A DNA stretch of 64,000 nt from an archaeon BMS3Abin17. GTDB taxonomy: Archaea; Nanobdellota; Nanobdellia; Pacearchaeales; GW2011-AR1. The stretch spans positions 1,957-65,956 of the forward strand of contig BDTJ01000038.1 of the NCBI GenBank assembly GCA_002897655.1, read 5' to 3'. Shown piece after piece: positions 44,959 to 62,585 of this stretch; the stretch's first letter is position 1; every line of letters begins with the position of its first letter. Position numbers and translations under genes: made by a program. Below the pieces are notes generated by a model. That model ran no database searches. It was not told the DNA's origin and saw only the letters and a list, made by a program, of their open reading frames with translations.

Positions 44959-45318
44959 TCATTTGTCTTTTAAAGATATTCTAAAATCCCTTTCTTTTTT
45001 AATCAGGTCCAGGATTTCACTATCAAGTTCCTTCTTTCTGACTGCAGGAGCAAGTTTAAAATAATTTAAAGATGAAAATTTATCATATAAGCCTTTATTT
45101 TTAATGAGATTTACAAAGTTTTCTTTATCTTCAGGGTAAATAATCTTTTCATACTCCTTTACTGAACATTTTTTATTTGTTCCAAAAAGAATATCAGTAT
45201 TTTTTTCTTTAGCTAATTCAATAATTTTTATTTTAATTTCCTTCTCTTTCAGTTCTATTTCACTTTTTAATTTTTGAATTCTTTCAAATTCATCAACTAA
45301 ACCATCATCATTTGCCAT
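44959..45318 (-). CDS. Stand-alone homologue of the C-terminal domain of the Cas4-like nuclease at 60395-61576
   Basis: KKCSVKEYEKIIYPEDKENFVNLIKNKGLYDKF...ERDFRISLKDK aligns with KKASVREFDRIVMPEGEDKAKFLQLLKDKGVYEEC...EKDYRISLSRRK. Confidence 0.45.
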   Translation of the reverse strand: MANDDGLVDEFERIQKLKSEIELKEKEIKIKIIELAKEKNTDILFGTNKKCSVKEYEKIIYPEDKENFVNLIKNKGLYDKFSSLNYFKLAPAVRKKELDSEILDLIKKERDFRISLKDK

Positions 45319-46880: not shown

Positions 46881-48308
46881 TTAATTTTTAACAATCCAGC
46901 TCCCCCCTTTATCAGGACCAATTCTTTTAATAATACTTTTCTGCTTTAATTGTTTAATATTTTTTTTAATTCCTTCAAGGCTTAATCTTAATTCATTTGC
47001 TAATTCTTCTCCAGTAATCTTAGGATTCCTGCTCATAAGATAGATTATTCTTAGTTGGGTCTTATTTGTTTCAGGGTACTTTTCAGAGTACTTTTCAGGG
47101 TACTTTTCAGAGGCATTTCCATCAAATTTAACTTTAAGAGGAAAACTAATTTTATAAAAAGTTGTTCCATCTTCTACAATAGGTTCAGTTTTATAATAAG
47201 ATTTCCAACCATTAAACATCTTATCAAAACCATATCCTGCATTTTCAGCTAACTTTAAAACTCTAAAGAGCTTTATTAAAATAGGATTTCTTGGAAAAGT
47301 TAGTTCTTGTTTTCTTAGCACTTCCACAGGAACAGGCAAACTCCCGGGATTCATAAATTCAATTCTATCTAAAAAAACTCGAATTCTCGGTTTCATAGTG
47401 CTAAAATAGTCTGAATGTGCCAATAAATTCACAATTGCCTCTCTAATTGCAAGAACTTGCGGTTGATTTTCATCCCTAAAAAATCCCTTGAGTTTAAAGG
47501 GGATATCTATTTTAGTGTGTAATCTTTCAGATAAACTAAAAAAATAATTAAAAAGATTTTTTTGCAAAGGCATTCTATATGTATATCTTTCTGGAGCATC
47601 GGCATAGGAAGTCCCATGAATTTCTAAATAATCTATCATAAAATTTGGGAAGATCTTGCTGATAGAATCCTCGGTTCCAAACATTAAAAGTCCTGCAATA
47701 CTCACCTCCTTATTAATCGTTACCCTTAATTTCTCAAAGATTTTTTCCTGAGATAGTTCATTATAAGGGTTTGAGGGATCTAGATTTCTTAGATAATTCC
47801 TAAATCTTTCTAATGTCTCATTATCTAAATCTTTTAATTTAAATTCAGTGGTTTCTTTATCTTTGGTTCCAAAAGCAGAATCTCTAAACATAGAATTAAC
47901 TTCCTCCTGTGTTGCTCTTTGATCTCCACTTCCAGAACGAATAAAAGTATTTTTTGGATTATTATAAAAAACAGGTTTGTTTTCAGAAAGAGGAATATAA
48001 AATGCCAAGATAGTTTTATCTTCAAATTTATACTTTTTTGATTTCACTTTAATTACAGAATTGAATTTAGATTTGTTCCTCAAAACAGTTGTAAAATCTT
48101 GTTCAATTTTTTCAGGGGTTTTAACTCCCCGAATGGAATACTTTTTTCCTTCTTTCCTGACTCCAAAAATTAACCATCCCCCATTAGTGTTTGCAAATGC
48201 AGAAATACTCTCCCAACTATTTTTTGGAATTTCTGATTTTGCTTCTTTAACTTCAAAATCTTCCCATTCAATGTCCTGTAGTTTTTTTATCAATTCACCT
48301 TTGTTCAT
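46881..48308 (-). CDS. AlbA_2 (Schlafen-like divergent AAA) plus HATPase_c_4 putative DNA-binding regulator
   Basis: SAFANTNGGWLIFGV is the AlbA_2 signature. C-terminal HTH. 13-bp tandem repeat at 47073-47112 encoding YPEKYSEKYPE. Confidence 0.55.
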   Translation of the reverse strand: MNKGELIKKLQDIEWEDFEVKEAKSEIPKNSWESISAFANTNGGWLIFGVRKEGKKYSIRGVKTPEKIEQDFTTVLRNKSKFNSVIKVKSKKYKFEDKTILAFYIPLSENKPVFYNNPKNTFIRSGSGDQRATQEEVNSMFRDSAFGTKDKETTEFKLKDLDNETLERFRNYLRNLDPSNPYNELSQEKIFEKLRVTINKEVSIAGLLMFGTEDSISKIFPNFMIDYLEIHGTSYADAPERYTYRMPLQKNLFNYFFSLSERLHTKIDIPFKLKGFFRDENQPQVLAIREAIVNLLAHSDYFSTMKPRIRVFLDRIEFMNPGSLPVPVEVLRKQELTFPRNPILIKLFRVLKLAENAGYGFDKMFNGWKSYYKTEPIVEDGTTFYKISFPLKVKFDGNASEKYPEKYSEKYPETNKTQLRIIYLMSRNPKITGEELANELRLSLEGIKKNIKQLKQKSIIKRIGPDKGGSWIVKN

Positions 48309-48570
48309 TTTACTCCAAAACCAACCTTCTTCTTAGTTCCATTAACAGGCACACCGTGAGTTCTGTTTATCCCCTGATTAATTAATTCTTTTTTTGCATC
48401 TTCTTTTTCCATTCATTTCTTCCTCAACTTTATTTCACCTTTTTTGGCAGATGCTTCAAGTTCATCACCTTCCTTAAGAGAAGAATCTTTGACTATTTTT
48501 TTTGGTAATACAATAACGTATTTGTGATAGATTTTATCACCTCTTTTTTTAGATAATTGTTTTTGGATTT

Positions 48571-49152
48571 TCATTTTTTATTCTCAAATTTTTTAATAAA
48601 CCACAACCTTATGAACATAGGGGGATGAAGAATCCACTTATTATATATCTTACCTATTGAAAAAGGAATATAGTCATTATAATCATAAACTTTTCTTAAA
48701 GTAGAACTTAACAATCCTTTTTCAGTTCTTTTTAGAGAATGAATATCTGCAAGTATCTCCTTTGGCCAACAAAATAAGGCTTCTAGTATTGCCCCCATTA
48801 AAATTAAAACTGGAAAAAATCCAATTAAAATAGCAAAAGTAATAATTGCTGGAACTTTAAGTAAAAAGAAAATTATTTCTTGATTAAAAGTTAATACAAA
48901 CCATAATGCAATGGATAAACTAATTAAAAAAGGCAGTATTGATAATATTTGGTTAAAGGGAGTTAAATGCCCCGCTTCATGGAGAAGTACAGAATTGTAT
49001 TCTTTTGGATTTAAGAAGGTCTTTATCCTCCCAGTCACAATAATAGTTTTACCATCTAATTTTGCCCACGCATTAACTTCAGCAGGCTTTGTTTTAATAA
49101 TGACTTTTTTTCCATCAAGAATTTTAGACTCCTTTAATTTCATAATTTTCAT
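48571..49152 (-). CDS. Membrane zinc metalloprotease-like protein (HExxH)
   Basis: Motif LLHEAGHL followed by three or four TM helices. Confidence 0.4.
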   Translation of the reverse strand: MKIMKLKESKILDGKKVIIKTKPAEVNAWAKLDGKTIIVTGRIKTFLNPKEYNSVLLHEAGHLTPFNQILSILPFLISLSIALWFVLTFNQEIIFFLLKVPAIITFAILIGFFPVLILMGAILEALFCWPKEILADIHSLKRTEKGLLSSTLRKVYDYNDYIPFSIGKIYNKWILHPPMFIRLWFIKKFENKK

Positions 49153-49373: not shown

Positions 49374-50828
49374 TTAATCTTTAAGGTCACTTTGAATTTC
49401 TTTTAATTGTTCTAAGGCAGATTCTAATTCTTCTGTTAATTCATCTGCAATAATATCAGGATCAGGAAGTTTGTCTAAATCATCTAAACTTTCATCTTTT
49501 AACCAGAAAATATCTAGATTAGTCTTATCTCTCTTTAGTATCTCTTCGTAACTAAAACATTTAAATCGTTCAGACTCTTTTCTTTTATGTCTATTGTTAG
49601 GATTATAGCATTTTACAAAATCATCTAAATCTTCTTCTTTTAAGGTATTTTCTTTTAATGTAAAATGTTTATTTGTTCTTAAGTCATAAATCCATATTTT
49701 AGAAGTTTGGGATTGTTTTGAAGCTTCTCTTTTATCAAAAAATAAGACATTCGCTTTAACACCCTGAGCATAAAATATTCCTGTTGGTAATCTCAATATT
49801 GTGTGTAAATCACAAGTTTCCATTAATTTCTTCCTTATTATTTCTCCTGCTCCACCTTCAAATAGAACATTATCTGGAAGAACGATTGCTGCCCTCCCAT
49901 TTATCTTTAATATGCTTTTTACGTGTTGTAAAAAGTTTAATTGTTTATTACTTGTTTCTGTCCAAAAGTCATCTCTTACAACTGTTAAGGTCTGTTTAGA
50001 TGTTTCTCCTTCTTCTGTTACAATTGTCTCAGAAGATTTTTTTCCAAAAGGAGGATTTGTCAGAACTATATCATAAACTGCCCCTGGATTTTTCTTCAAG
50101 GAATCCTCAAGGCTTATTGGGCTTTGTTCTCCATTGATCCCATGTAGATATAAATTCATTACACAAAGTCTTGCAACCATTGGGACAATATCATTTCCAC
50201 TAAATGTCTTGTGTTTTAATTTTATATTTTGGTCTCTGTCTAATTCATAATTTTTAACAATATGATTATATGCAGAAAGTAAAAATCCTCCTGTTCCAGA
50301 AGCAGGATCATGAATTTTTATTCCTGGTTCTGGTTTTATAACTTTAACAATTGAGTTAATTAAGGGTCTTGGTGTGAAATATTGCCCTGCTCCGCCCTTA
50401 ACATCTGCCGCATTTTTTTCTAAAAGCCCTTCATAAGCATCACCTTTAACATCTGCATCTAAGTTCAACCAATTTTCTTTGTTTATTAAATCAACAATTA
50501 ATTTTCTTAATTTCGCAGGATCTTGTATTCTATTTTGAGATTTTCTGAATATAACCCCTATAATTCCAGATTCTTTTCCCAATTCATTTAATAATTTAAT
50601 ATAATGTCTTTCTAGTTCTGGACCTTCTTTGTCTAAAAGAGATTGCCAATTATATTTCTTAGGAATATCGCTTTTTTTACTGTAAGGAGGCTTTGTTCTC
50701 TCATCATCCATTTTCAAAAACAGCAGATATGTCAGTTGTTCAACGTAATCCCCATAAGAAAGACCGTCATCTCTAAGTACATTACAATAATTCCATAATT
50801 TACTTACTAATTGTTGTGATGTTGTCAT
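49374..50828 (-). CDS. hsdM: Type I restriction-modification methyltransferase subunit
   Basis: HsdM N-terminal region, an AdoMet pocket and the motif NPPFG (LTNPPFGKKS). Confidence 0.9.
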   Translation of the reverse strand: MTTSQQLVSKLWNYCNVLRDDGLSYGDYVEQLTYLLFLKMDDERTKPPYSKKSDIPKKYNWQSLLDKEGPELERHYIKLLNELGKESGIIGVIFRKSQNRIQDPAKLRKLIVDLINKENWLNLDADVKGDAYEGLLEKNAADVKGGAGQYFTPRPLINSIVKVIKPEPGIKIHDPASGTGGFLLSAYNHIVKNYELDRDQNIKLKHKTFSGNDIVPMVARLCVMNLYLHGINGEQSPISLEDSLKKNPGAVYDIVLTNPPFGKKSSETIVTEEGETSKQTLTVVRDDFWTETSNKQLNFLQHVKSILKINGRAAIVLPDNVLFEGGAGEIIRKKLMETCDLHTILRLPTGIFYAQGVKANVLFFDKREASKQSQTSKIWIYDLRTNKHFTLKENTLKEEDLDDFVKCYNPNNRHKRKESERFKCFSYEEILKRDKTNLDIFWLKDESLDDLDKLPDPDIIADELTEELESALEQLKEIQSDLKD

Positions 50829-51055
50829 TTTTTTAGATAATTTATAACTTTATTATATCTTACTATTTGTAAAATGTCAAAGAAGATTACTCCTATTAAA
50901 ACAATCCATGTTACATAAGCTAATTTTAATTTAAATGTTAAATCTTCAATAGTGTAATACCCAATTGAAGTTGATAAAGTAACTGCTAAAAGAGTAAACA
51001 ACCAAGTCCTCGCGTTTTCATATTTTACCTTTAATAATTCATATTCTCTATCCAT
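50825..51055 (-). CDS. Small two-TM protein embedded between hsdS and hsdM
   Basis: 76 aa; its ends overlap both neighbours. Confidence 0.35.
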   Translation of the reverse strand: MDREYELLKVKYENARTWLFTLLAVTLSTSIGYYTIEDLTFKLKLAYVTWIVLIGVIFFDILQIVRYNKVINYLKK

Positions 51056-52205
51056 TTTTCACCAACTTTCCTTCAAAAGCAACTTTCAGGATTGATTTTC
51101 TGAGCATCTCTGCCTTTTTCAAAGAGTTATCAACAACTTCTTCAACTTTGTCTATAACTGAAAATTTTGATTCTATATTGGAGACTATTTTTTCCCAATC
51201 TTCTTTATCTGGAAGAGTCACAATAAAAGAGTTAAGGGTATTTTTGGATATTGCTTTAAAAGTAGTGCCAGTCCCTTTACTATCTAATCTTTGCCCATAA
51301 TAATTTATTAAATAGAAAAGTAAAAGAGATTCAGTTTCATTTTTAGCTTTTATTGCCGCAATTCCTCTACCAATAGCACATTTTTCAGGAGAAATATTAC
51401 AAGGACCAATTGGAGCTCTTATTGATACTAACAAGTCCCCTTTATCTGCTTCTTTGTTATACTTCTCAGTCCAAATTTCTATATTTGGAAATTTATAATT
51501 AAATTCTTTTTTTCCTTGAAAAAAAGCTAAACCTTTTTTTTCTTTATTATAATATTCAGATTTTGGTGATTGCCCCATAATTATTTCAAATGCTTTTCCA
51601 AGTTCTGTTTCTTTTCCATTCTCAAAAGCCTTTTTCAAGACAGCTTTTTTGTAAAGTTCTATTTTTTGTTTGACTGTTTTTAGTGATTTGATTGCTTCGT
51701 CAAGTCGTGTGAATTGAGTTTCTATGGCAGAGACGATTTTTTGTCTATCTTCAAATTTTTCTGGATAATATATTACATATTCTTTTAAAGTATTCGGAGA
51801 AATATTTGGTTGTGCCCCCCCATACGCTTCTTTGAGAATTTGTTGGCTTTTTGTTTGTAGAAAATAATAAATATAATCTTCTGATTTTTTATCTTTAGAT
51901 CTTATTAGCGCAATCCTTTGATTTAATAAAGCTGGTTTACTTTCCTTATAAATCCCAATTTTTCCAGTAGTTGCACCAGATAAGGCAATTAAAATATCAT
52001 CTTTTTTCAACACAGAATTTTTTATTTTCTCATTTAATTCCTTATCATAATAATGTTGATTTTTTTCTAAAATCATAACTTCTTGACCATTAGTTATATT
52101 TGAAATTCTAATTATTGGGATTCCTTGTTTTGCAAATTCTGAACTTTTGAAAGCAAACCCTGATTTTACTTTTGCTACTTCGTTAAGTTTTTTTGTTTGT
52201 CGCAT
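51048..52205 (-). CDS. hsdS: Type I R-M specificity subunit
   Basis: Two target-recognition-domain halves separated by conserved central and C-terminal coiled regions; 385 aa. Confidence 0.8.
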   Translation of the reverse strand: MRQTKKLNEVAKVKSGFAFKSSEFAKQGIPIIRISNITNGQEVMILEKNQHYYDKELNEKIKNSVLKKDDILIALSGATTGKIGIYKESKPALLNQRIALIRSKDKKSEDYIYYFLQTKSQQILKEAYGGAQPNISPNTLKEYVIYYPEKFEDRQKIVSAIETQFTRLDEAIKSLKTVKQKIELYKKAVLKKAFENGKETELGKAFEIIMGQSPKSEYYNKEKKGLAFFQGKKEFNYKFPNIEIWTEKYNKEADKGDLLVSIRAPIGPCNISPEKCAIGRGIAAIKAKNETESLLLFYLINYYGQRLDSKGTGTTFKAISKNTLNSFIVTLPDKEDWEKIVSNIESKFSVIDKVEEVVDNSLKKAEMLRKSILKVAFEGKLVKNG

Positions 52206-52206
52206 C

Positions 52207-52611
52207 TTAACTTCTTCCCCCTTTTTTTATTAATTCAATAATTTGTGGTAGATACTGAACAATCCAGGGTGCATTGATCAATAACCATTTACCTATATCT
52301 TTTCCCTTTACTTTTTTTTGTAATTCTATTTCTTCAACAAGTCTTTGACCCTCAGAAGTAATTTTTATATTAAGTGGTTTCCCATTCACCATTCTTATAT
52401 CTATAATTAGATTTTCTTCTTCTAAGAATTTCATTTGCTGATTTATGTTAACCTCGGAGCAACTCAATTTTTGAACTATTTCCTTAAATGAAGCTCTTTT
52501 ATTTTCCTGGTTTAACAAATAAAGAAATCCTAAAATTTTATATCTAATTAATATATTTTCTAAAATTAAATCTTTCATTTTCTTTCTTTCCTTGGAAATA
52601 AAAAATACCAA
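52207..52611 (-). CDS. wHTH transcriptional-regulator-like protein
   Basis: 134 aa; ILGFLYLLNQENKRASFKEIVQKLSCSEVNINQQMKFLEEENLI looks PadR/MarR-like. Confidence 0.35.
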   Translation of the reverse strand: MVFFISKERKKMKDLILENILIRYKILGFLYLLNQENKRASFKEIVQKLSCSEVNINQQMKFLEEENLIIDIRMVNGKPLNIKITSEGQRLVEEIELQKKVKGKDIGKWLLINAPWIVQYLPQIIELIKKGGRS

Positions 52612-53048
52612 ATTTCTTTAATTAATACACCTGATAATCCTGCAATAAAAATTCCAAATATAATTAAGGAAACTGGCTTAGCCCAATTTGATTTTTCAAG
52701 ATTAAGGATAAAAATAAAAAGGGTTATTAAAACATTTAATGCTGTTGCAACCGCAATAATTATAGTAGCTTTAAGAGTTTTATTATTAATCTGTTCTTGT
52801 CTTTGATTTTTATTATATTCTTCCAAGGAAGCAAAACCCTTTGGTGCAAGTTTGATATAAAATATATCTATCCAATTATTTGATTTATTTTTCTCCCTTA
52901 TTTTTTGTAAAAATATAAACCTTTCTTCACGCATAGCTTCAAAATCAGTTAGAAAAAACCCCAAGTCCTCAAATTTTTCTATTAATTCTAAGACATTTGG
53001 CTCTTGTTTTGATAATATTTCAAAGAGTTTTATGTAGTTGTTTTTCAT
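52575..53048 (-). CDS. Membrane protein (C-terminal two TM helices)
   Basis: 157 aa. Confidence 0.3.
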   Translation of the reverse strand: MKNNYIKLFEILSKQEPNVLELIEKFEDLGFFLTDFEAMREERFIFLQKIREKNKSNNWIDIFYIKLAPKGFASLEEYNKNQRQEQINNKTLKATIIIAVATALNVLITLFIFILNLEKSNWAKPVSLIIFGIFIAGLSGVLIKEIWYFLFPRKERK

Positions 53049-53076
53049 TTTGATTGTGGCTATTTATTTTGAGCTG

Positions 53077-53634
53077 TCATTTTTCTAATATTCTCTGGGC
53101 TTCATCTATTCCAATAATTTCTAATTTATATTTAGTAAATCTCTTAGCAATTTTTTTAGATTCTTTTTTGAATTGACTATCGCTTGTTATTAAAAAATCG
53201 CATTCATTACTTAAAGCCGTTGCTAAATGAACACAATCTGGAGACCAGATATTTGAACTTGAACTAATATCACTAGCAACTTGCCAACCATCTTCTGATA
53301 AAGAAAGTTTTTCTAAGAAAGGATAAGATTCTAATAAATTATCAAGGTATTCAGAAATTTTCTTGAAATGATGATCTTCTAAATTAGGATTATTTCTTTC
53401 TCTAATTATCCTTTTAAATTCAAATTTTTTATTAATTGCTTCTTGAAAGAATAAATCATCTTTTTTAGCATCACAAAGTTCCATTAAAAGAAATGCAGAG
53501 GTATAACAGCTACATTTTTTCTTATTTTGAAGATTTCTTATTACTTCAATTAAATGAATCGCTTTTGTATTTCTTTTTTCCATAATATCTCTAATAAAAT
53601 TTGTATCTAAGTAAATCTTAGGATATTTCTTCAT
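53077..53634 (-). CDS. PIN-domain (VapC-like) protein
   Basis: N-terminus MKKYPKIYLDTNFIRD plus downstream acidic residues. Confidence 0.45.
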   Translation of the reverse strand: MKKYPKIYLDTNFIRDIMEKRNTKAIHLIEVIRNLQNKKKCSCYTSAFLLMELCDAKKDDLFFQEAINKKFEFKRIIRERNNPNLEDHHFKKISEYLDNLLESYPFLEKLSLSEDGWQVASDISSSSNIWSPDCVHLATALSNECDFLITSDSQFKKESKKIAKRFTKYKLEIIGIDEAQRILEK

Positions 53635-53795
53635 TTTCTCCTCCTCTTTTTTGTAGTATAAAAAGTAACTTTTACAGGTTTTTTTATTGTTTTAGTCGCT
53701 TTAAATTTTACAAGAGTTCCATCTGACCTTCTAAAACGAACTACTGTTGGTTTTTTTATTTTCTTTTTCGCCCAAAAACTAATTCTTCTTGCCAT
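53631..53795 (-). CDS. Unlisted 54-aa strongly basic ORF, translationally coupled (ATGA) to the PIN gene
   Basis: My own translation: MARRISFWAKKKIKKPTVVRFRRSDGTLVKFKATKTIKKPVKVTFYTTKKRRRK. It contains the GGAGG upstream of the PIN start. Confidence 0.3.
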   Translation of the reverse strand: MARRISFWAKKKIKKPTVVRFRRSDGTLVKFKATKTIKKPVKVTFYTTKKRRRK

Positions 53796-54456
53796 CTTCA
53801 ATCTCCAAAATTTTAATTAACTCTGAATCAATATGTTTTATTTTATTAACGCTTCTTATTGTAATATCAACTTTTCCACCAGGAGCGGATTTTATATTTA
53901 TATCAATTTTCTCTTTTTTTCCAGTTATTTTATTATCAAAAATCTCTTTATCCCAGATAATTGCATTTTTATCTATAATCATTATTTTTCCTCCCAACAC
54001 TTTTTCAGAAACTGGGATTATTCTATATCTTCTATCTAATCTTGGATATTTTTCTTCATAGTCAATTCTATTCATTAGTTTAGTAAACACTTCTACATAA
54101 AACTTAGTTGAAAGGAGAATTATAGCATTATTAAGATCAAATATATACTTTGGAAATTCATTAATATCTTCTTTAAATTTTATCTTTTCTATTTCATTTT
54201 TATCTAAAATACTTTTTATTAAAAAATCTACCTCCCCCCCCGCAACCATTCTACCTGCGCCAGGAAGGTATTCGGAAAATGAAGGACTGATAAAAATATT
54301 CTCATCAATTAAAGGCCTTATCCCTATTTGAATAAATTTTCCATCAGTTTTTTCAACTAAATTCACCTTAGCAATATCTTCAATAATTAAACTTCTATTA
54401 TAATCTTCTAAAGTATATTCATAAAATTTCTTAATTTTTTCTTTATTATAACTCAT
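53779..54456 (-). CDS. Hypothetical protein
   Basis: 225 aa, within the R-M operon. Confidence 0.35.
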   Translation of the reverse strand: MSYNKEKIKKFYEYTLEDYNRSLIIEDIAKVNLVEKTDGKFIQIGIRPLIDENIFISPSFSEYLPGAGRMVAGGEVDFLIKSILDKNEIEKIKFKEDINEFPKYIFDLNNAIILLSTKFYVEVFTKLMNRIDYEEKYPRLDRRYRIIPVSEKVLGGKIMIIDKNAIIWDKEIFDNKITGKKEKIDINIKSAPGGKVDITIRSVNKIKHIDSELIKILEIEDGKKN

Positions 54457-54680
54457 TTTGTTTTCTCTCCTTTTTCAAAGGGGTTAAGAGTTATTTTTTC
54501 TAAAAGTTCAATTTTTGCATTTTTATTTGAATTCTCATTTTCTAAAAATCTTATCCTAGGTTTAATATCTTTTTTTAAATCTGAAACCTGTTTTAAAACC
54601 CACCCCAAAAAAATCAAAATTAAAGTTATAAATATCCCTAGAATCCATTCCCAACTTAAACTAATTGTTGAAGTTCCCAT
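54453..54680 (-). CDS. Small single-TM protein
   Basis: 75 aa; shares its boundary with the hsdR stop. Confidence 0.3.
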   Translation of the reverse strand: MGTSTISLSWEWILGIFITLILIFLGWVLKQVSDLKKDIKPRIRFLENENSNKNAKIELLEKITLNPFEKGEKTK

Positions 54681-57451
54681 TACCCCCCAACCCCCAAATT
54701 TATTCCCCTAATCATCTTTCCAAACTTTTCCTGTCCTTCAAAGACCTTCACGGCTTTGCCTAATCCTCCCATTTGCTGAAGTGAACCATATTCAAAATCA
54801 TCTGCTTCAATTTCTGCTGTTGTTGCAATATGTTGTTTTATTTTTCCTAACCAGGTTAGTTGCTCTTTTGTGAATTCTACTCCTTGTTCTTTTTGTGTTG
54901 CAAGCCATTCTTTAAATCTCTTTTCAATTGTATCGAGATATGGCTCAAGCTCTTTTGTTTTTTCTATCTCATGCCTGAGGAGAGATATAAAATCTGCTAT
55001 TCTCTCAGATTTTGATTGGCCTTTAACCTTCCCTTCTTCTAAATTTTTGTAAGCATTCCAAAGTCTTGAAGTGGTTAGCCCATAAGAGGGGGATTTAATT
55101 GTCTCTGAAAGACTTTTAAGATCTTTCCATTTAATCTTTCCTTTATGTTTATATAATATCTGAATTGCATCTAATTCGTCTTTATTTTTCTTGATAAATT
55201 CTCTAAAAGAACCTACAACCTCTTTTGCTTTTTCTTTAGCAATTTCAGAAAATCCTGCATACTCAACTTCATCAAGAGTAACATCATCAAGAATTATCTC
55301 TGTTTCTCTTTTAATTTCAGGAAGTCTTTCTAAAAGTTTTGGATTCTTAGTAAAGTCTAGGGAAGCATTTTTGATTCTTTTTCTTGTAAATTCTTCAATT
55401 TGTGTTTTTGTTGGTTCATAGCCAAATTCTTTTTGAGCTTCTTCTAATATTTTATCTCCATCAACTGCCAATACTAGTTCCTTAGAAAAATCACTTAGTT
55501 TTTTACCTGAAATATTCTGGATTTCTTTATTTTGCTTTTCTGTTAATCTTTTTTCTAATCTAGAAAGTCTTGAAGCCATAGAAGAAAGATGCTCTTTCTT
55601 TAACTTGCCTTTTCCATATTGAAATAATTTTATTAACTTTTCAAAAGAAATCTTTTTACCTAACTGTTCTAATGGAGAAGTCTCATTTAAATCTTTATTG
55701 TCTAAAACCCCCACTGCATCAACAATAACAAATCTTTCTTTAACTGCATTAGGTGTAACTTGTCTAAAATCTTCTGCTTTCATAACTCTAACCCCCCTAC
55801 CTTTCATTTGTTCAAATAATAACCTGCTTTTAACAGCCCTCATAAAAAATACTATCTCCAAAGGTTTAATATCAGTTCCTGTCGCAATCATATCCACAGT
55901 AACAGCAATCCGAATTTTAGGAGATGTTCTAAAATCCTTAATCAGTTGTTTTGGACTTATACCCTCTGTTTTATAAGTTATTTTAACTGCAAAATCATTC
56001 CCTTCTCCAAAAACCTCTCTGACAATTTCCAAGATATCCTCTGCATGGTCGTCACTTTTTGCAAAAATTAAGGTTTTAGGAACCCAATCTCTATTAGGAA
56101 AAATACTTGGCAACATTTTATCTTTAAATGTTTTTATTATTGTCCTAATTTGGTCTTTTGATACAACTCTTCTATCAAGTTCCTCTGCATTATATTGAAC
56201 TTCATCCTCAAGTTTTTCCCATCTTTTTTGTCTTGTTCTTTTGTCTCTTTTAATAATCGTCTCTCCTTTTGGAATAATATTTCCTGTTTTTGTAACTTTT
56301 GTTCTAATATCATAAACATCAAAATCAACATTTACATTATCTGCAACAGCTTCCTCATGCCCATACTCCATAACGAGATTTTTATTAAAAAAACCAATAG
56401 TGCCTTTAGAAGGTGTAGCTGTTAAACCAATTAAAAAAGCATCAAAATATTCTAAAACCTGCCTCCATAATTTATAAATGGATCTATGGCACTCATCAAC
56501 AATAATTACATCAAATGTTTCTATTGGGATCTTAGGGTTATATTCTAATTTTTCATACTCTCCAGATAAAGCATCTATAAACTTTTCATCATCCTCTTGT
56601 TCCCCTGTTAATTTTTCTCCTTTAATTATAGAATACATTCTTTGAATCGTGGAAATACAAACCCTTGTAGAGTCACTTATTTTGTTTCCTTTCAACAATT
56701 GAAGATTGTGCAAATCAGTAAATTTCCTCCCATCTCCAGGAACTTCAAAATTCTCAAATTCTTGTTCTGTTTGTTCCCCTAAATTAGACCTGTCCACTAA
56801 AAATAAAATTCTATGAGCATTGCCATTTTTAATTAAATCCTCACAAATATTAACTGCAGTAAAAGTTTTTCCAGAGCCTGTTGCCATCTGAATTAATGCT
56901 TTTGGATTTCCATTAGCCAAAGACTCCTTAATGTTTTTTATAGCTTTAATTTGAACAGGCCAAAGGTTTTTATTTTTATATTCTTTGTTTAAAGAAAGAT
57001 TATACCTTAAATTTCCTTTTTTTCCTTTTTTAATCCAATCCTCCAGAGTTTCAGGTTTATGAAAAGCGAAAACCTCTCTGCTTCTTGGCTTTGCATCCCA
57101 CTTATTAGTGAATCTAATTTCAGAGCCAGAGGATTCATAAAGAAAAGGCAATTCTCCTTCGAGTTTCTCAAAATCCTCTGGAAATCCTTCAGAATATTTT
57201 GCAGTTTGAGGCTCTTTACCCATTAATGACTCCCCTTCTTTTTTAGCCTCAATTACTCCTACTGCTTTTCCATTTACAAATAAAACATAATCTGCCTGGT
57301 CTTTACCCATTTGGAAGTATTCAACAGCAACTCCTTTTGAGCTATGAACATTGGCAATTTTATAGTTTTGAATATTCCACCCAACAGCATCTAATTGGGG
57401 GTTAATCTTCTCATGCCTTGCTTTATCTTCTGGTCTTAATGAGTGTGTCAT
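54680..57451 (-). CDS. hsdR: Type I R-M restriction subunit
   Basis: Walker A QMATGSGKT, DECH box (IIVDECHRS) and helicase C; 923 aa. Confidence 0.9.
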   Translation of the reverse strand: MTHSLRPEDKARHEKINPQLDAVGWNIQNYKIANVHSSKGVAVEYFQMGKDQADYVLFVNGKAVGVIEAKKEGESLMGKEPQTAKYSEGFPEDFEKLEGELPFLYESSGSEIRFTNKWDAKPRSREVFAFHKPETLEDWIKKGKKGNLRYNLSLNKEYKNKNLWPVQIKAIKNIKESLANGNPKALIQMATGSGKTFTAVNICEDLIKNGNAHRILFLVDRSNLGEQTEQEFENFEVPGDGRKFTDLHNLQLLKGNKISDSTRVCISTIQRMYSIIKGEKLTGEQEDDEKFIDALSGEYEKLEYNPKIPIETFDVIIVDECHRSIYKLWRQVLEYFDAFLIGLTATPSKGTIGFFNKNLVMEYGHEEAVADNVNVDFDVYDIRTKVTKTGNIIPKGETIIKRDKRTRQKRWEKLEDEVQYNAEELDRRVVSKDQIRTIIKTFKDKMLPSIFPNRDWVPKTLIFAKSDDHAEDILEIVREVFGEGNDFAVKITYKTEGISPKQLIKDFRTSPKIRIAVTVDMIATGTDIKPLEIVFFMRAVKSRLLFEQMKGRGVRVMKAEDFRQVTPNAVKERFVIVDAVGVLDNKDLNETSPLEQLGKKISFEKLIKLFQYGKGKLKKEHLSSMASRLSRLEKRLTEKQNKEIQNISGKKLSDFSKELVLAVDGDKILEEAQKEFGYEPTKTQIEEFTRKRIKNASLDFTKNPKLLERLPEIKRETEIILDDVTLDEVEYAGFSEIAKEKAKEVVGSFREFIKKNKDELDAIQILYKHKGKIKWKDLKSLSETIKSPSYGLTTSRLWNAYKNLEEGKVKGQSKSERIADFISLLRHEIEKTKELEPYLDTIEKRFKEWLATQKEQGVEFTKEQLTWLGKIKQHIATTAEIEADDFEYGSLQQMGGLGKAVKVFEGQEKFGKMIRGINLGVGG

Positions 57452-57485: not shown

Positions 57486-59189
57486 CTATTCAAATCTTCT
57501 CATAAATTTATTAATTTCTTCTGCAATTCTCTTTCTTCTGAACTCTAAAAATTTCTTATAATTATTTATCTCCCAATCCTCTTTTTCTAGAGAAATAAGT
57601 TGCGAAGCGAGTGTATCTTTGCCCCTTTTTTCAATAATCTCTTTAAGATATATTTTTGGCTCCTTTTTTGCTATTTGACGGTTTGTTTTCCCCCCTATAA
57701 ATGCAAGATTAGATATTTCATTTACTTCTTTTTTCTCAAATCCCGCCTTTTTTAGTAGAGATTTGGGAAATATGTGGTGATATTGTAATGAATGAGCTCT
57801 TCCAATATGCCTTTCTGATAGAGAAAGGCCAGTCCACCAGTCTTTTGCTTCATTTTGTTTAAGAACAAAATATAACATTGAAAAAAATGGACTTCTTATC
57901 CCCTTTTCAAATATGTCCTTTTCACCCACTTCAAACTTTTTAACATGTGTTTGTAATTGGTTAAGCAAATTATCTACACTATTCCCTCTAAAAATAATAG
58001 ATATATCTAAATCTAGGATTGATTCAGAAGAACCCATCCCATAATGACCCCTCATATGTGCTAAATAAAACCACCTTAATAATCTTTTTTCATCTTCTCC
58101 AGATAATTTTTCATTATTATTCATTGCATAAATTGCTATCGGGATTAATAAAAAAGGGGAGGAGATATTGGAAAGATTATCTACTCCAGCATTGCTTCTT
58201 AGGAAATTCACAGCAAATCTTAGACCATTCTTTGCAAGTTCCCATGACTCCTCTAATTTTTTCTTTTTTATTTTCCCCACAGTCTTGAATTTACTTTGTT
58301 GGGTAGCAAATACTACAAGAGTTCTTACAGGTAACCCGGATTCAAGAATATAATCTTCATCTTCTTTGAATTCTTTAGCAAATTCCTCAATTTGATCCAT
58401 AAAACCTTTCCATTTAGAAGTAATTTGAGCAAGTGCTAAATCAGAACCTCTCAACTTTATCCCTAAAGAATTAACTCTAACAAATATCTCTGTTACTTCT
58501 TCATAAGATTTATTTTTATCTAAAACTTGCATACCATATGTATAATCTGCTATTTTCTTTAAATTTTGTAATCGTGCAGAATATTTGTCCCATTTTTCGT
58601 CATCAGAATTTATCCCAATCGATTTTAAAATTTGACTTTCAGATTTCTTAAAAACATCTGAAACTGGTATCCATAAAGGATTATTTTTTAAGGTTTTACT
58701 TGATACAACAAAAATTTTCTTTTTTAGTTCTTCCCATATATCTCTTTCAGAAGAATCTCCATTTTCTAAATTCTCAGAACTTTCTTGGCCATCATTTTCA
58801 TCAACTTCAGTCACTTCAACAGGGGGGCCTTCTGGATGTTCTAGATTGAATAAGATCTCGATAGGCCTTTTCCTTTTTCTAACATGAACTGGTTCTCCCG
58901 ATATAATTGCAGATAAAGAAGTGATTCTTTGCTGACCATCTAAAAGAAGCCATTTTTGTGAGGTTGTTGGAGGTTTAGTAGACTTTATTGCTAAATCTCT
59001 TTCTTGAATATCTTCATCTGTTTCCCAGACTAATATAGTCCCTGAAGGATATTTTCTATACAAAGAATCTAATAGGTCTCTTACCCTTGTTCCAGGCCAG
59101 ATATACTTTCTTTGCATTTCAGGCAATTTTAATTCTTTTCTCAATACTTTATCTACTAATTCTCTTACCGAAATATATGTTTCAACCAT
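57486..59189 (-). CDS. GmrSD-like DUF262/DUF1524 type IV restriction-like enzyme
   Basis: N-terminal DUF262 motif LLLDGQQRITSL. C-terminal His-Me finger (HHIFPKS...N). Confidence 0.8.
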   Translation of the reverse strand: MVETYISVRELVDKVLRKELKLPEMQRKYIWPGTRVRDLLDSLYRKYPSGTILVWETDEDIQERDLAIKSTKPPTTSQKWLLLDGQQRITSLSAIISGEPVHVRKRKRPIEILFNLEHPEGPPVEVTEVDENDGQESSENLENGDSSERDIWEELKKKIFVVSSKTLKNNPLWIPVSDVFKKSESQILKSIGINSDDEKWDKYSARLQNLKKIADYTYGMQVLDKNKSYEEVTEIFVRVNSLGIKLRGSDLALAQITSKWKGFMDQIEEFAKEFKEDEDYILESGLPVRTLVVFATQQSKFKTVGKIKKKKLEESWELAKNGLRFAVNFLRSNAGVDNLSNISSPFLLIPIAIYAMNNNEKLSGEDEKRLLRWFYLAHMRGHYGMGSSESILDLDISIIFRGNSVDNLLNQLQTHVKKFEVGEKDIFEKGIRSPFFSMLYFVLKQNEAKDWWTGLSLSERHIGRAHSLQYHHIFPKSLLKKAGFEKKEVNEISNLAFIGGKTNRQIAKKEPKIYLKEIIEKRGKDTLASQLISLEKEDWEINNYKKFLEFRRKRIAEEINKFMRRFE

Positions 59190-59227: not shown

Positions 59228-59356
59228 TCACTCCTCCCCAACATCCCCTCTCTTACTCAAAGATATCCTGTGATCTTTTTCAATGTTTGCCCTATCCTTT
59301 TCCGGCATTGCATCAAGCATTCTTTTTCTGTTCTTGGGTGCCTGCAATCCAGTCAT
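59228..59356 (-). pseudogene. 42-aa ORF that duplicates the Cas4-like C-terminal tail
   Basis: My own translation: MTGLQAPKNRKRMLDAMPEKDRANIEKDHRISLSKRGDVGEE, compared with the Cas4-like end ...KDKVNIEKDYRISLSRRKDLEEE. ATGA overlap with the Fic stop. Confidence 0.4.
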
Positions 59357-60300
59357 TTTTTCTTTTTTTCAAGCTTCTCCTGAAATTTTTTGTATTCTTT
59401 TATATACAATTTTATTGTTGGTTTTAAATTTTTATTTAGTTCATATTCTTTTAATGTTCTGTAATATTCCTGGCTATTTTTAAAATCAATATTAACCGGG
59501 GGGAGGTTATGTTTAATTAAGATATTATTTAATAAGATTCTTCCAACCCTTCCATTTCCATCTGCAAATGGATGGACATTCTCAAATTGGTTGTGTATTA
59601 CAGCACCAAGAATTAATGCAGGATATTTCTCTTTATTTTTGTTATACCAATTTATTAATTCTTTTAATAAGTAATTAATTCTGGTCTGTGGCGCCCCTTC
59701 ATGAACCACTTGCCCAAGATTATTTGTGACAACAACTTCTTCTCCTTTTTTTCTTAAGCTTCCTGCAAAGGATTTAGAATTTTTAAAAACAATTTTATGG
59801 ATTTTTTTAATTAAATTAATTGAAATATGCTCTTTGGCCTGCCTGATAAATCTTATTGCTTCATCTACTCCATAAGCTTCTGCAATATCTTCTTTTGATT
59901 TGTCCAGCCATTTGTCTTTTTCTAAAATATCCTTAACTTCTTTCTGGCTTAATTTGCTTCCTTCTATAGCATTAGTATTATAGGTAAAAATTTTAGAGAA
60001 TATTTTCCAGTCTTTTTCAGATAAATGGAATATCTTTAAGGGAATCTCTGCCTCTAATTTTTTTATTTCCTTAATCTCCTGTTTAGTCAATTCAAAATCT
60101 AAAGGGTCTTTTATGACTTTATATTTGTGTATTTCTTCAAGGATTAGTTTTTCTGCAATTTCTCTCCTTTCTTTTAATTTTCTGTTGCTTAAATCAGTTC
60201 CAAGATACTTTCTGAATTTATGAACTTTTAATCCCTCCCTATAAGAATGAGCTAAATAATATTTTGTTTTCTTTCCCTGCTTTCTTTTTTCAATATGCAT
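59353..60300 (-). CDS. Fic/Doc-family protein
   Basis: Fic motif HPFADGNGRVGR. Confidence 0.8.
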   Translation of the reverse strand: MHIEKRKQGKKTKYYLAHSYREGLKVHKFRKYLGTDLSNRKLKERREIAEKLILEEIHKYKVIKDPLDFELTKQEIKEIKKLEAEIPLKIFHLSEKDWKIFSKIFTYNTNAIEGSKLSQKEVKDILEKDKWLDKSKEDIAEAYGVDEAIRFIRQAKEHISINLIKKIHKIVFKNSKSFAGSLRKKGEEVVVTNNLGQVVHEGAPQTRINYLLKELINWYNKNKEKYPALILGAVIHNQFENVHPFADGNGRVGRILLNNILIKHNLPPVNIDFKNSQEYYRTLKEYELNKNLKPTIKLYIKEYKKFQEKLEKKKK

Positions 60301-60394: not shown

Positions 60395-61576
60395 TCACTC
60401 CTCCTCCAAATCCTTCCTTCTACTCAATGATATCCTGTAATCTTTTTCAATGTTTACTTTATCCTTGATTTCTTGCTCAATTTCATCCTTGAGGACCTTG
60501 CTGTTAAGCTTTGGATAGCAGAGCATAGAGCATTCTTCATACACCCCTTTATCTTTTAATAACTGCAGGAACTTTGCCTTATCTTCTCCTTCAGGCATGA
60601 CAATCCTGTCAAACTCCCTGACAGAGGCTTTCTTATTGCTTCCATACGCCACATCTATCTCAAACTGCTTTGCATATCTTATCAGGTTATCCTTAAATTC
60701 TTCTTCTGCTGTTTTTAATTCTGAAAGCTTTGTCTTTATCTCAGAATACTTATCAACCAACTTAACACCTTCATCTTCCTTGAACTGTTCAACAACTTCA
60801 ATCTTTTCCAATTCTGCCTGATGCTTGAATGAGGGGCATTCTCCCCTGAACCCGCAATAATCACATAAAGCAGTAACATTTGTAGGAAACTCTGTCGCAG
60901 ATTCAATCTCTCTTATCCTCTCAATAACTTCATCCTGCAGTTTTTCCACCTGTTTATCTGTTCTTTCAGAGACAGCATCTTTATTAAAAGCCAGCATATG
61001 CCAGATTAACTTTACTGACTTTGCATCTTTGAATTTATCCTTAACCCAGATAGAATACATTGCCAGCTGCCTGTCTTCATCTGCTTCATTCTGGTCTTTC
61101 ATTCTTGAATTTGTCTTGTAATCACAAACATAATAATTTCCCTTGCTGTCACAACCCAGCTTATCTATCCTCACATGCCACTGATTCCCGTCTTTCAGGG
61201 TCATCCTGTCCTGAGTCTCTAATCCCAGTATTGTCATATCCTCAAAAGGCTTCATCCTGTCATAATAATCTGTCAGGAACTTTTCACCCATCTTCCTGTA
61301 ATTCTCAGCATCAAGGCCTTTCTTAACAATTAAAATATCATAAGAATAATTCTTCTTCCACAAATCCCTGTAGAACTTAACAAGGCTCTCCTTTGCAACC
61401 CTTTGCCTGAATTTCTTTCTTTTATACAGGTCTTCCAGAGCCTGATGCACCATGTCCCCCATAAATGCCTCAATAGTAGTGGGAGTTTCTGGCTTCTTCT
61501 TATCAATATAACGCAGTTTATACTGATATGGGCAATTTTCAAAAGTCGTAACTCTCGAATGCGAGTATGTTGCCAT
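60395..61576 (-). CDS. Stand-alone Cas4-like PD-(D/E)xK nuclease (DUF83-like) with a C-terminal extension
   Basis: N-terminal Cys (FENCPYQYKLRY), a D...VCDYKT motif, QLAMY and a C-terminal CDYCGFRGECP cluster. No cas genes or CRISPR array nearby. Confidence 0.6.
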   Translation of the reverse strand: MATYSHSRVTTFENCPYQYKLRYIDKKKPETPTTIEAFMGDMVHQALEDLYKRKKFRQRVAKESLVKFYRDLWKKNYSYDILIVKKGLDAENYRKMGEKFLTDYYDRMKPFEDMTILGLETQDRMTLKDGNQWHVRIDKLGCDSKGNYYVCDYKTNSRMKDQNEADEDRQLAMYSIWVKDKFKDAKSVKLIWHMLAFNKDAVSERTDKQVEKLQDEVIERIREIESATEFPTNVTALCDYCGFRGECPSFKHQAELEKIEVVEQFKEDEGVKLVDKYSEIKTKLSELKTAEEEFKDNLIRYAKQFEIDVAYGSNKKASVREFDRIVMPEGEDKAKFLQLLKDKGVYEECSMLCYPKLNSKVLKDEIEQEIKDKVNIEKDYRISLSRRKDLEEE

Positions 61577-61609
61577 AAAATTAGATATATTAGGGGGTTT
61601 TAAGGTTTT
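61577..61609. promoter_or_regulatory. Shared promoter/leader module, copy 1
   Basis: AAAATTAGATATATTA... directly 5' of the Cas4-like ATG (minus strand). Confidence 0.5.
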
Positions 61610-61662
61610 TTATGTTGGTTTATTCACACAAAACCTGATATCTAAAGCTATTAGGAAGAATT

Positions 61663-62545: not shown

Positions 62546-62585
62546 AAAATTAGATATATTAAATGGTTTTAAAGAATTCGGTGTT
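62546..62585. promoter_or_regulatory. Shared promoter/leader module, copy 2
   Basis: 35 nt identical to copy 3 and 22 nt identical to copy 1. Confidence 0.5.

What the first reader, a model, noticed from the sequence alone, without database searches (positions are those of the whole stretch)
49374..57451. Type I R-M operon with six or seven extra genes embedded between hsdR and hsdS-hsdM
On the minus strand the genes run hsdR, a 75-aa TM protein, a 225-aa unknown, a 54-aa basic ORF, a PIN protein, a 157-aa membrane protein, a 134-aa wHTH protein, hsdS, a 76-aa two-TM protein and hsdM. Almost all of these overlap by 1-20 nt, so this is a single transcription unit. Canonical hsdRMS operons do not contain a PIN nuclease with a coupled small partner, membrane proteins or a regulator. 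The arrangement suggests an R-M-coupled accessory defence module (toxin-like PIN plus membrane effectors under R-M control), or a nested insertion.
Basis: partly seen in the sequence, partly recalled or inferred. Interest (0 to 1): 0.7.

Follow-up and report, generated by a model that had tools for sequence, protein, structure and literature searches.

The report
Capsid-fold protein embedded in restriction operons
A restriction-modification operon of a tiny symbiotic (DPANN) archaeon carries several swappable extra gene cassettes, and the 225-aa "unknown" is predicted to have the fold of a virus capsid/encapsulin shell protein and sits right after the restriction gene in dozens of related archaea, a pairing I found described nowhere.

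Summary
Ten co-oriented, mostly overlapping minus-strand genes run hsdR to hsdM at 49374-57451, and the R, S and M genes look intact (EcoEI/EcoAI-like type I).

The embedded genes are not one module. They form at least three independently shuffled cassettes.

2. bas56 + PIN. This toxin-antitoxin-like pair also occurs without p225 in another type I operon.

3. tm157 (+ wHTH). This pair is absent from the closest relatives of the operon. The tm157 family recurs in other R-M operons.

Embedding of defence genes in type I R-M operons is a known phenomenon. An R-M-linked HK97-fold family appears to be new. Its mechanism is inferred, not shown: most likely an assembly-competent sensor or scaffold coupled to membrane or nuclease effectors.

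The parts
54680..57451 (-). hsdR, type I restriction subunit (EcoEI/EcoAI-like)
   Evidence: Pfam ResIII 6e-40, EcoEI_R_C 4e-34, HSDR_N, Helicase_C. NCBIfam PRK11448 1.5e-107 and EcoAI/FtnUII 6e-57, both below their curated cut-offs. 87-88% identical to hsdR of L046/L047.
54453..54680 (-). tm75: small membrane protein with an N-terminal TM helix, a coiled-coil-like tail and a conserved C-terminal PFEKGEK motif. It is the upstream partner of p225.
   Evidence: One TM segment, residues 4-35. Homologues lie immediately upstream of p225 in 8 loci at 36-68% identity, and the C-terminal motif is conserved. 4-nt overlap with p225. No family hit.
53779..54456 (-). p225: HK97-fold (capsid/encapsulin-like) protein, the conserved R-M-embedded gene
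53631..53801 (-). bas56: very basic 54/56-aa protein with an internal repeat (V.F.ATKK.KKP.KV). It is the partner of the PIN gene.
   Evidence: Alignment of 14 homologues. Internal DNA repeat with 72-nt spacing. Followed by a PIN gene in about 20 loci. An 85% identical copy sits with a PIN gene in an R-M operon that lacks p225.
53077..53634 (-). PIN-domain nuclease, translationally coupled to bas56
   Evidence: PF01850 5e-7. E52 and D133 are invariant and D10 is nearly invariant; D152 lies in a mostly conserved S/N-D motif. 86-89% identical in L046/L047/L024. Elsewhere it is paired with bas56 (L093) or with a MazE-like 51-aa gene (L092).
52575..53048 (-). tm157: soluble N-terminal domain of about 85 aa plus two TM helices. 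Absent from the closest relatives of this operon, so gained here or lost there.
   Evidence: TM segments at 90-118 and 123-147. 21 homologues, embedded in other R-M loci: L090 hsdM...hsdS...hsdR, and L089 next to an N6_N4 MTase + ResIII. Absent from L046/L047, where PIN abuts hsdS. Only a weak PycTM-like hit, 0.0018.
52207..52611 (-). winged-helix DNA-binding protein (probable regulator), seen only in this locus
   Evidence: HTH_34 2e-6, HTH_11 1e-4. Weak hits to CARF/Csa3-associated wHTH models. No homologue in the first 80 related loci, L001-L080.
51048..52205 (-). hsdS specificity subunit with two target-recognition domains
   Evidence: Methylase_S 3e-32, two stretches. PADLOC Specificity_I 3e-51. 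Only 32-36% identical to hsdS of L046/L047, whereas R and M are 87-93% identical. That is the expected pattern of TRD swapping.
50825..51055 (-). tm76: small predicted membrane ORF between hsdS and hsdM. Coding status rests on the ORF and its overlaps only.
   Evidence: One TM segment above threshold at 39-59, plus a second hydrophobic stretch. 8-nt and 4-nt overlaps with its neighbours. No homologue or family hit. Other loci carry different small or TM genes in this slot.
49374..50828 (-). hsdM methyltransferase subunit
   Evidence: N6_Mtase 2e-71, HsdM_N 6e-13. PADLOC MTase_I 1.8e-196. 90-93% identical to L046/L047.

Best explanation
SHOWN. The locus lies in a chromosomal defence island of a DPANN (Pacearchaeota) archaeon. 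It contains an intact-looking EcoEI/EcoAI-like type I R-M operon whose inter-gene slots hold at least three independently exchangeable cassettes. Cassette 1 is tm75 + p225. p225 is predicted to have a complete HK97 capsid/encapsulin fold. It belongs to a cellular family that sits downstream of the restriction gene (type I HsdR or type IIG enzyme) in about 90% of informative loci. It is almost always preceded by a small membrane protein, an RHH-like protein, or both. More distant relatives carry the domain at the C-terminus of proteins with 4-TM DUF2254 or Mrr-nuclease N-termini, or follow an AlbA_2 gene. Cassette 2 is bas56 + PIN, an autonomous two-gene pair that resembles a toxin-antitoxin module. 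Cassette 3 is tm157 (+ wHTH), absent from the closest relatives of the operon. INFERRED. All cassettes are co-transcribed with the R-M genes and act as second-line defence, following the 'guilt-by-embedding' logic. For p225 I commit to this mechanism: it is an oligomerising HK97-fold sensor/scaffold domain, tethered to the membrane through the conserved C-terminal tail of tm75. It engages capsid-assembly components of infecting HK97-type viruses, or self-assembles when triggered. That clusters and activates the variable partner effector (membrane protein, Mrr, HNH or AlbA_2), aborting infection or poisoning capsid assembly when restriction fails. The general framing (mosaic of embedded accessory cassettes; p225 has an HK97 fold and is R-M-linked) is well supported, at about 0.8. 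The specific sensing mechanism has a probability of roughly 0.3. The confidence given is for the statement as a whole.
For: Fold. R-M linkage: of 33 non-redundant loci with at least 1.5 kb upstream, 25 have an EcoEI-like hsdR directly upstream, 4 have a type IIG enzyme directly upstream, and one has an HsdR of another family 2.4 kb upstream. 25 of 29 loci with enough downstream sequence have hsdS downstream. Independent shuffling: p225 versus hsdR Spearman -0.11, hsdR versus hsdM +0.87. Window versus L046/L047: R, M, PIN and bas56 are 83-96% identical, but p225 is 53-55%. Partner types are scattered over the p225 tree. Variable effector-like partners and fusions: TM partners, DUF2254 and Mrr_cat fusions, an AlbA_2 partner next to GmrSD, an HNH-like partner. 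Autonomy of bas56-PIN. tm157 in other R-M operons. Defence-type occupants of the same slots: PIN, NYN, PD-(D/E)XK/Shedu-like. Precedent for embedding in type I R-M: Payne et al., bioRxiv 10.1101/2024.01.29.577857. No viral relatives by sequence.
Against: There is no experimental or multimer-model evidence that p225 oligomerises, binds tm75, or senses anything. The RHH-like partner or N-terminal extension is not an effector, and neither Pfam nor the monomer model confirmed it as RHH. The very specific position right after the restriction gene suggests a functional tie to the R subunit that the sensor model does not explain. Sensor domains of defence systems usually diversify fast, yet p225 is about as conserved as hsdR (mean pairwise identity 54% versus 52.5%). 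Known HK97-fold proteins are shell builders (own knowledge), which favours a compartment reading. PADLOC holds no model for p225. Co-transcription was not tested.
Confidence: 0.45

Rival explanations
1. p225 is a true encapsulin-like nanocompartment. It self-assembles into a closed shell that cages a toxic or DNA-active cargo until needed. Candidate cargos are the neighbouring nucleases PIN, Mrr-like or PD-(D/E)XK, the basic bas56 protein, the RHH domain, or even HsdR. The result would be an R-M-coupled 'caged nuclease' or a restriction-alleviation device.
Against: The commonest partners are membrane proteins, and six clusters fuse a 4-TM DUF2254 domain to the N-terminus. That topology is hard to fit inside a closed shell. 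Nuclease partners shuffle independently and are sometimes absent, with p225 directly followed by hsdS in L034, L049, L063 and L064. bas56-PIN exists without p225. No shared cargo-targeting peptide was identified. There is no sequence relation to Pfam encapsulin families.
Confidence: 0.2
2. p225 (+ tm75/RHH) is an accessory subunit or regulator of the restriction enzyme itself, not a separate defence system. For example, it could localise HsdR or type IIG enzymes at the membrane where foreign DNA enters. In these nucleotide-scavenging episymbionts it could also control self-restriction.
For: Its position is invariant, downstream of the nuclease-bearing gene, across at least four different R-M backbones: two EcoEI-like lineages, an HSDR_N/T1R_D3 type I, and type IIG enzymes. 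It has membrane-anchor partners. An RHH-like DNA-binding partner could be a controller.
Against: p225 alleles are exchanged independently of hsdR. A dedicated subunit would be expected to co-evolve with it. Relatives occur without any R-M gene, with AlbA_2, a TM partner or wHTH genes. Most type I systems work without such a protein (established knowledge).
Confidence: 0.15
3. The embedded genes are selfish hitch-hikers or decaying remnants, with no function linked to the R-M system. They could be a relic capsid gene of an extinct provirus or satellite plus addiction modules that lodge in a permissive operon.
For: The cassettes have a lower G+C content (0.24-0.26) than hsdR and hsdM (0.29-0.35). 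Their content is mosaic and variable. bas56-PIN looks like an addiction module.
Against: p225 is intact and 45-81% identical across more than 50 non-redundant loci, with 18 invariant residues. That indicates purifying selection. No other virion genes were seen in the neighbourhoods inspected, and there are no viral relatives. Positional conservation after the R gene is about 90%.
Confidence: 0.08

Closest known systems
Defence genes embedded in type I R-M operons (PrrC/EcoprrI; 'guilt-by-embedding' candidates of Payne et al. 2024, bioRxiv 10.1101/2024.01.29.577857)
   Same: Extra genes are nested between hsd genes. They are co-oriented and translationally coupled, and their occupants are variable and nuclease-rich (PIN, NYN, Shedu-like, HNH).
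   Different: None of the embedded proteins here matches PrrC or a PADLOC HEC/PDC model convincingly. The best hits are the PIN to PDC-M11A at E about 1e-3 and a NYN occupant to HEC-09 at 4e-4. The conserved occupant is an HK97-fold protein, and that paper does not mention capsid, HK97 or encapsulin. The hosts are DPANN archaea.
Family 1 encapsulins / Pyrococcus furiosus virus-like particle (PDB 2e0z)
   Different: About 15% identity and no Pfam Linocin_M18/CL0373 hit. No oxidative-stress, iron or sulfur cargo enzyme nearby. The genomic partners are restriction enzymes, small membrane proteins and nucleases. Shell formation is untested.
HK97-type major capsid proteins of tailed viruses and capsid-redirecting satellite proteins (e.g. 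SaPIbov5 Ccm, PDB 7rwz)
   Different: No portal, terminase, protease or scaffold genes were seen in the neighbourhoods inspected. No sequence relatives in IMG/VR or GenBank phages. p225 is shorter, at 225 aa.
VapBC-type toxin-antitoxin pairs
   Same: The bas56-PIN pair is a small upstream gene overlapping a PIN nuclease whose PIN-type acidic residues are conserved. It moves as an autonomous unit. In L092 the same PIN family pairs with a MazE/AbrB-like gene.
   Different: bas56 is an extremely basic repeat peptide with no AbrB, RHH or PHD match. Toxicity and neutralisation are untested.

Membership tests
Type I restriction-modification system (EcoEI/EcoAI-like) | HsdR with an N-terminal nuclease region and an SF2 translocase | tested here: met
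   HSDR_N, ResIII, Helicase_C, EcoEI_R_C. PRK11448 1.5e-107 and EcoAI family 6e-57, both below their curated equivalog cut-offs.
Type I restriction-modification system (EcoEI/EcoAI-like) | HsdM N6-adenine methyltransferase and HsdS with two target-recognition domains in the same operon | tested here: met
   N6_Mtase 2e-71 + HsdM_N. Methylase_S with two stretches.
Type I restriction-modification system (EcoEI/EcoAI-like) | ATP-dependent restriction of unmodified DNA and site-specific methylation | not testable with these tools
   Needs biochemistry or methylome data.
Encapsulin | HK97 fold of the shell protein | tested here: met
Encapsulin | Sequence membership in a described encapsulin family (Pfam Linocin_M18 / clan CL0373, families 1-4) | tested here: not met
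   No Pfam hit even at E<=0.1. No PDB sequence hit at E<=10.
Encapsulin | Self-assembly into closed icosahedral shells | not testable with these tools
   Only monomer prediction is available. N-terminal 4-TM fusions in distant relatives argue against a closed shell for those members.
Encapsulin | Dedicated cargo encoded in the operon and carrying a targeting peptide or fused to the shell protein | tested here: inconclusive
   No classical cargo enzyme. Possible analogues are the Mrr_cat and RHH-like N-terminal fusions and the conserved C-terminal PFEKGEK tail of tm75. The neighbouring nucleases shuffle independently.
Provirus or satellite capsid gene (Duplodnaviria) | Co-located portal, terminase, protease or scaffold genes, or relatives in viral genomes | tested here: not met
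   Gene maps of 80 loci show R-M, nuclease and TM genes only. Many small neighbours remain unannotated. No relatives in IMG/VR or GenBank phages.
VapBC-like toxin-antitoxin (bas56-PIN) | PIN toxin with conserved acidic active-site residues, preceded by a translationally coupled small gene | tested here: met
   E52 and D133 invariant, D10 nearly invariant, D152 mostly conserved. 4-nt overlap. The pair is conserved in about 20 loci and in L093 without p225.
VapBC-like toxin-antitoxin (bas56-PIN) | Antitoxin with an AbrB, RHH, PHD or HTH DNA-binding fold that neutralises the toxin | tested here: not met
   bas56 has no family hit and is a basic repeat peptide. Neutralisation is untestable here.
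PrrC/RloC-type R-M-guarding anticodon nuclease | ABC-ATPase + HEPN anticodon nuclease embedded in hsd genes | tested here: not met
   No ATPase or HEPN hit in any embedded protein of the window.
PADLOC HEC/PDC embedded defence candidates | Match to a PADLOC-DB v2 model | tested here: not met
   p225, tm75, bas56 and tm76 have no hits. PIN hits PDC-M11A at 1e-3 and tm157 hits PycTM at 2e-3, both weak.

The most novel reading that the evidence does not exclude
DPANN archaea run a previously unknown kind of immune or DNA-processing organelle. In this reading an HK97-fold protein, exapted from a capsid or encapsulin, forms a membrane-tethered cage or lattice that is genetically and physically coupled to restriction enzymes. 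The cage either holds nucleases or DNA-binding cargo, or it detects capsid assembly of infecting viruses homotypically. It would be the first link between capsid-fold compartments and R-M immunity, and a fifth, sequence-orphan lineage of cellular HK97-fold proteins.
Probability: 0.3. Interest if true: 0.9.

Novelty: new variant of a known kind. Interest (0 to 1): 0.75.

Why it matters
To my knowledge, cellular HK97-fold proteins are known only as encapsulin shells for metabolic or stress enzymes. Here a sequence-orphan HK97-fold family is tied to restriction enzymes, small membrane proteins and nucleases. That would widen what capsid-derived proteins do in cells.

It would also give a concrete candidate for the 'missing' immunity of DPANN archaea. 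A recent survey reports R-M and CRISPR-Cas as under-represented in DPANN and candidate systems as enriched (PMC12988326).

The family is small (225 aa), is predicted with high confidence, and would probably be easy to express. The shell-or-sensor question is therefore directly testable.

The locus also shows that archaeal R-M operons act as cassette hotspots, like the bacterial ones used for 'guilt-by-embedding' discovery. It supplies several further unannotated candidates: bas56-PIN, tm157, and the c7 and c9 nucleases.

Tried and rejected
- **Family searches.** Pfam, NCBIfam, PHROGs and PADLOC found nothing for p225, bas56 or tm76. tm75 and tm157 gave only weak, non-specific hits. A profile search of PDB sequences with the p225 alignment found nothing even at E<=10.
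- **Unavailable library.** The afdb50 fold library was not on the machine.
- **RHH assignment.** I called the small upstream ORF and the N-terminal extension RHH-like from the sequence pattern. Pfam did not confirm this; the only hit was a weak ParG match for cluster c16. The monomer model of the long form shows three helices at moderate confidence. I keep the label as 'RHH-like, unconfirmed'.
- **HEPN motif.** I suspected an Rx4H (HEPN) motif in the 163-aa partner in the type IIG loci. Pfam and PADLOC gave no support, so I dropped it.
- **Conservation argument.** I first thought p225 was far more conserved than the R-M genes. That held only relative to this window's rare hsdR lineage. Across 17 operons the mean identities are similar, so I withdrew the argument.
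- **Cassette boundaries.** I looked for repeats flanking the embedded cassettes and found none beyond chance-level AT-rich matches.
- **Promoter and terminator scan.** It uses bacterial consensus signals and was uninformative for an archaeon. Counts matched the shuffled controls.
- **Viral origin.** No relatives in IMG/VR or GenBank phages.
- **Literature.** Searches combining encapsulin or HK97 with restriction, defence or DPANN found no prior description. The library is incomplete, so prior work cannot be excluded.

Full report
**1. Observation**

| Gene | Coordinates | Length |
|---|---|---|
| hsdR | 54680-57451 | 923 aa |
| tm75 (75-aa TM protein) | 54453-54680 | 75 aa |
| p225 (225-aa unknown) | 53779-54456 | 225 aa |
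| bas56 (basic ORF) | 53631-53801 | 56 aa from TTG, 54 aa from ATG |
| PIN | 53077-53634 | 185 aa |
| tm157 (157-aa membrane protein) | 52575-53048 | 157 aa |
| wHTH | 52207-52611 | 134 aa |
| hsdS | 51048-52205 | 385 aa |
| tm76 (76-aa ORF) | 50825-51055 | 76 aa |
| hsdM | 49374-50828 | 484 aa |

All junctions are overlaps of 1-37 nt or gaps of 28 nt or less.

Pfam and PADLOC confirm several assignments:
- HsdR: ResIII, EcoEI_R_C, and the EcoAI/FtnUII family.
- HsdS: two Methylase_S stretches.
- HsdM, the PIN domain and the winged helix.

A hydropathy scan supports the TM predictions.

The window is chromosomal DNA of a DPANN archaeon. The p225 sequence is 100% identical to a protein of 'archaeon BMS3Abin17', and tm157 to a Candidatus Pacearchaeota MAG protein. 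Elsewhere the window encodes PolD (with an intein), Cdc6/Orc1 and RecQ.

The operon sits in a defence island:
- GmrSD, Fic and a Cas4-like PD-(D/E)XK gene lie upstream.
- A MazE-like/M48-like pair and an AlbA_2 protein lie downstream.

Co-transcription is plausible but not demonstrated. The promoter/terminator scan uses bacterial signals, and its counts matched the shuffled controls.

**2. The 225-aa protein is the key**

It matches nothing in Pfam, NCBIfam, PHROGs or PADLOC, and nothing among PDB sequences. It has 103 close homologues at 46-81% identity. All of those that carry a taxonomic name come from Pacearchaeota or Nanoarchaeota MAGs. A profile search of 1.84 billion representatives finds 182 clusters.

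| Match | Score |
|---|---|

Foldseek against the PDB (E=2e-9) and against BFVD agrees. Every top BFVD hit that carries a name is a capsid or head protein. p225 is therefore a compact but complete HK97-fold protein, and an orphan at the sequence level.

**3. Genomic association**

I fetched 80 loci encoding p225 relatives. I called ORFs, searched them with the window's proteins and clustered them.

After removing redundancy, 52 loci remain.

Upstream, 33 loci have at least 1.5 kb of sequence:
- 25 have an EcoEI-like hsdR directly upstream on the same strand.
- 4 have a type IIG Eco57I/MmeI-like enzyme directly upstream.
- 1 has an HsdR of another family (HSDR_N + SWI2_SNF2 + T1R_D3) 2.4 kb upstream.
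- 3 show no R-M gene.

Downstream, 25 of the 29 loci with at least 3 kb of sequence have hsdS.

My own rough estimate is that a random gene lies just downstream of a restriction gene well under 1% of the time. The association is therefore far beyond chance.

**4. Anatomy of the variable region**

The recurrent order is: R, then small gene(s), then p225, then an optional nuclease, then hsdS, then variable genes, then hsdM.

Small upstream genes:
- An RHH-like ORF of 80-100 aa. It is homologous to the 55-aa N-terminal extension of the 281-286-aa p225 forms.
- Small TM + coiled-coil proteins: tm75 in 8 loci, c26, and c6 with 3-4 TM helices.
- An HNH-like zinc-finger protein (c12).

Nuclease slot after p225:
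- bas56 with one of two PIN families, about 20 loci.
- A protein of about 330 aa with a PD-(D/E)XK-like motif by eye (c7), 11 loci.
- A PD-(D/E)XK/Shedu-like protein (c9), 9 loci.
- Nothing.

The slot between hsdS and hsdM often holds a NYN nuclease (HEC-09-like) or TM proteins.

**5. Modularity**

Across 17 complete operons, hsdR and hsdM identities correlate strongly (Spearman 0.87). p225 identity is uncorrelated with either (-0.11 and -0.04).

The window's closest operons are L046 and L047:

| Gene | Identity to the window |
|---|---|
| hsdR | 87-88% |
| hsdM | 90-93% |
| PIN | 86-89% |
| bas56 | 83-96% |
| p225 | 53-55% |
| tm75 | 36-63% |

The window's p225 is 70-81% identical to alleles whose flanking R-M genes are, where they could be compared, only 26-30% identical to the window's. 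Partner types are scattered over the p225 tree.

In L046, L047 and L024 the PIN gene abuts hsdS. tm157 + wHTH therefore distinguish this lineage, most simply as an insertion.

tm157 has 21 homologues, and these again sit inside other R-M loci.

An 85% identical bas56 with a PIN gene is embedded in a different type I operon that lacks p225. The same PIN family also pairs with a MazE-like gene elsewhere.

The embedded region is therefore a mosaic of at least three autonomous cassettes, not one module.

**6. The wider p225 family**

More distant members carry the domain at the C-terminus of long proteins. Their N-termini are 4-TM DUF2254 domains (six clusters) or an Mrr_cat nuclease. Others follow a translationally coupled AlbA_2 gene next to GmrSD. 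In a locus without R-M genes, which looks non-DPANN from its gene content, one follows a 2-TM protein and is followed by a wHTH gene.

A small membrane partner is thus the most widespread companion. The partner set (TM, Mrr, HNH, AlbA_2) resembles the effector repertoire of abortive-infection systems; that comparison is my inference from general knowledge of such systems. No relatives exist in IMG/VR or GenBank phages.

**7. Mechanism**

These points are shown: the fold, the R-M linkage, the partners, the shuffling and the fusions. Everything below is inferred.

I favour p225 as an oligomerising HK97-fold sensor/scaffold. It would be tethered to the membrane through the conserved PFEKGEK tail of tm75. 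It would then activate variable effectors, or poison capsid assembly, when HK97-type viruses assemble, as a back-up to restriction. I put this at about 0.3.

The rivals are:
- **A true encapsulin-like cage for nucleases or DNA-binding cargo (0.2).** The best structural hits and the N-terminal fusions support it. The N-terminal multi-TM fusions and the independent shuffling of the nucleases argue against it.
- **An accessory or localisation factor of the restriction subunit itself (0.15).** The invariant position after the R gene supports it. The lack of co-evolution with hsdR argues against it.
- **Selfish or relic DNA (0.08).** Strong conservation argues against it.

bas56-PIN is most simply a VapBC-like addiction or abortive module with an atypical basic repeat partner. 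Its acidic residues E52 and D133 are invariant and D10 is nearly so.

**8. Comparison with what is known**

Embedding of defence genes in type I R-M operons is established. PrrC is the classic case, and Payne et al. 2024 developed 'guilt-by-embedding'. That paper does not mention capsid, HK97 or encapsulin.

The encapsulin census of Andreas & Giessen 2021 does not mention restriction, nucleases or DPANN. It was built on Pfam clan CL0373, which p225 does not match.

Other searches found no prior description.

I therefore rate the locus a new variant of a known kind. The open possibility is that the p225 module is something categorically new.

Noticed in passing
window 59228-59299 and 60395-60466; also 44959-45318: The 3' end of the Cas4-like PD-(D/E)XK gene (60395-61576) is duplicated as a 72-nt direct repeat (82% identity) on the other side of the Fic gene, as if Fic had been inserted with a target duplication. 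A third, diverged copy of the same C-terminal 117 aa (43% identity, E=8e-25) forms a separate 119-aa ORF at the far end of the island. Related loci (L061, L046, L080) also have this PD-(D/E)XK gene or a fragment near the R-M operon. It may be an integration hotspot that anchors the island.
   Followed up: partly
window 57486-59189, 59353-60300, 46881-48308, 48413-49152: The R-M operon is flanked by further defence-type genes: GmrSD (ending 34 nt before hsdR on the same strand), Fic, an AlbA_2/Schlafen + HATPase_c_4 + wHTH protein, and a MazE-like 53-aa gene coupled to an M48-like membrane peptidase. The MazE-like protein looks by eye like the 51-aa partner of the PIN gene in L092; I made no direct comparison.
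   Followed up: partly
window 21402-26234 and 11345-12703: The PolD large subunit (DP2) carries an intein with a LAGLIDADG homing endonuclease. A separate 452-aa ORF also has a LAGLIDADG_3 domain.
   Followed up: no
window 61573-61615, 62542-62584, 63250-63292: A 43-nt direct repeat occurs three times (79-93% identity) at 708-969-nt spacing. The copies lie at or near the starts of small minus-strand genes next to the island. They may be a shared promoter or regulatory element, or cassette boundaries.
   Followed up: no
window 61663-62146: Two overlapping small minus-strand ORFs (78 aa and 95 aa) look by eye like an RHH-antitoxin/RelE-type toxin pair. They were not profiled.
   Followed up: no
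window 60500-61500: G+C rises to 0.39-0.40 over the PD-(D/E)XK gene, against about 0.30 elsewhere. The embedded cassettes at 52500-54500 drop to 0.24-0.26.
   Followed up: no
L090/L091 7001-7504; L093 4635-13744: Other DPANN type I operons, in the order hsdM...hsdS...hsdR, also carry several embedded genes: small TM proteins, DUF4145, AlbA_2-Fic-like proteins, and unknown proteins of 301 and 488 aa. RadC and Fic genes are frequent neighbours. Embedding looks like a general feature of DPANN R-M loci.
   Followed up: partly
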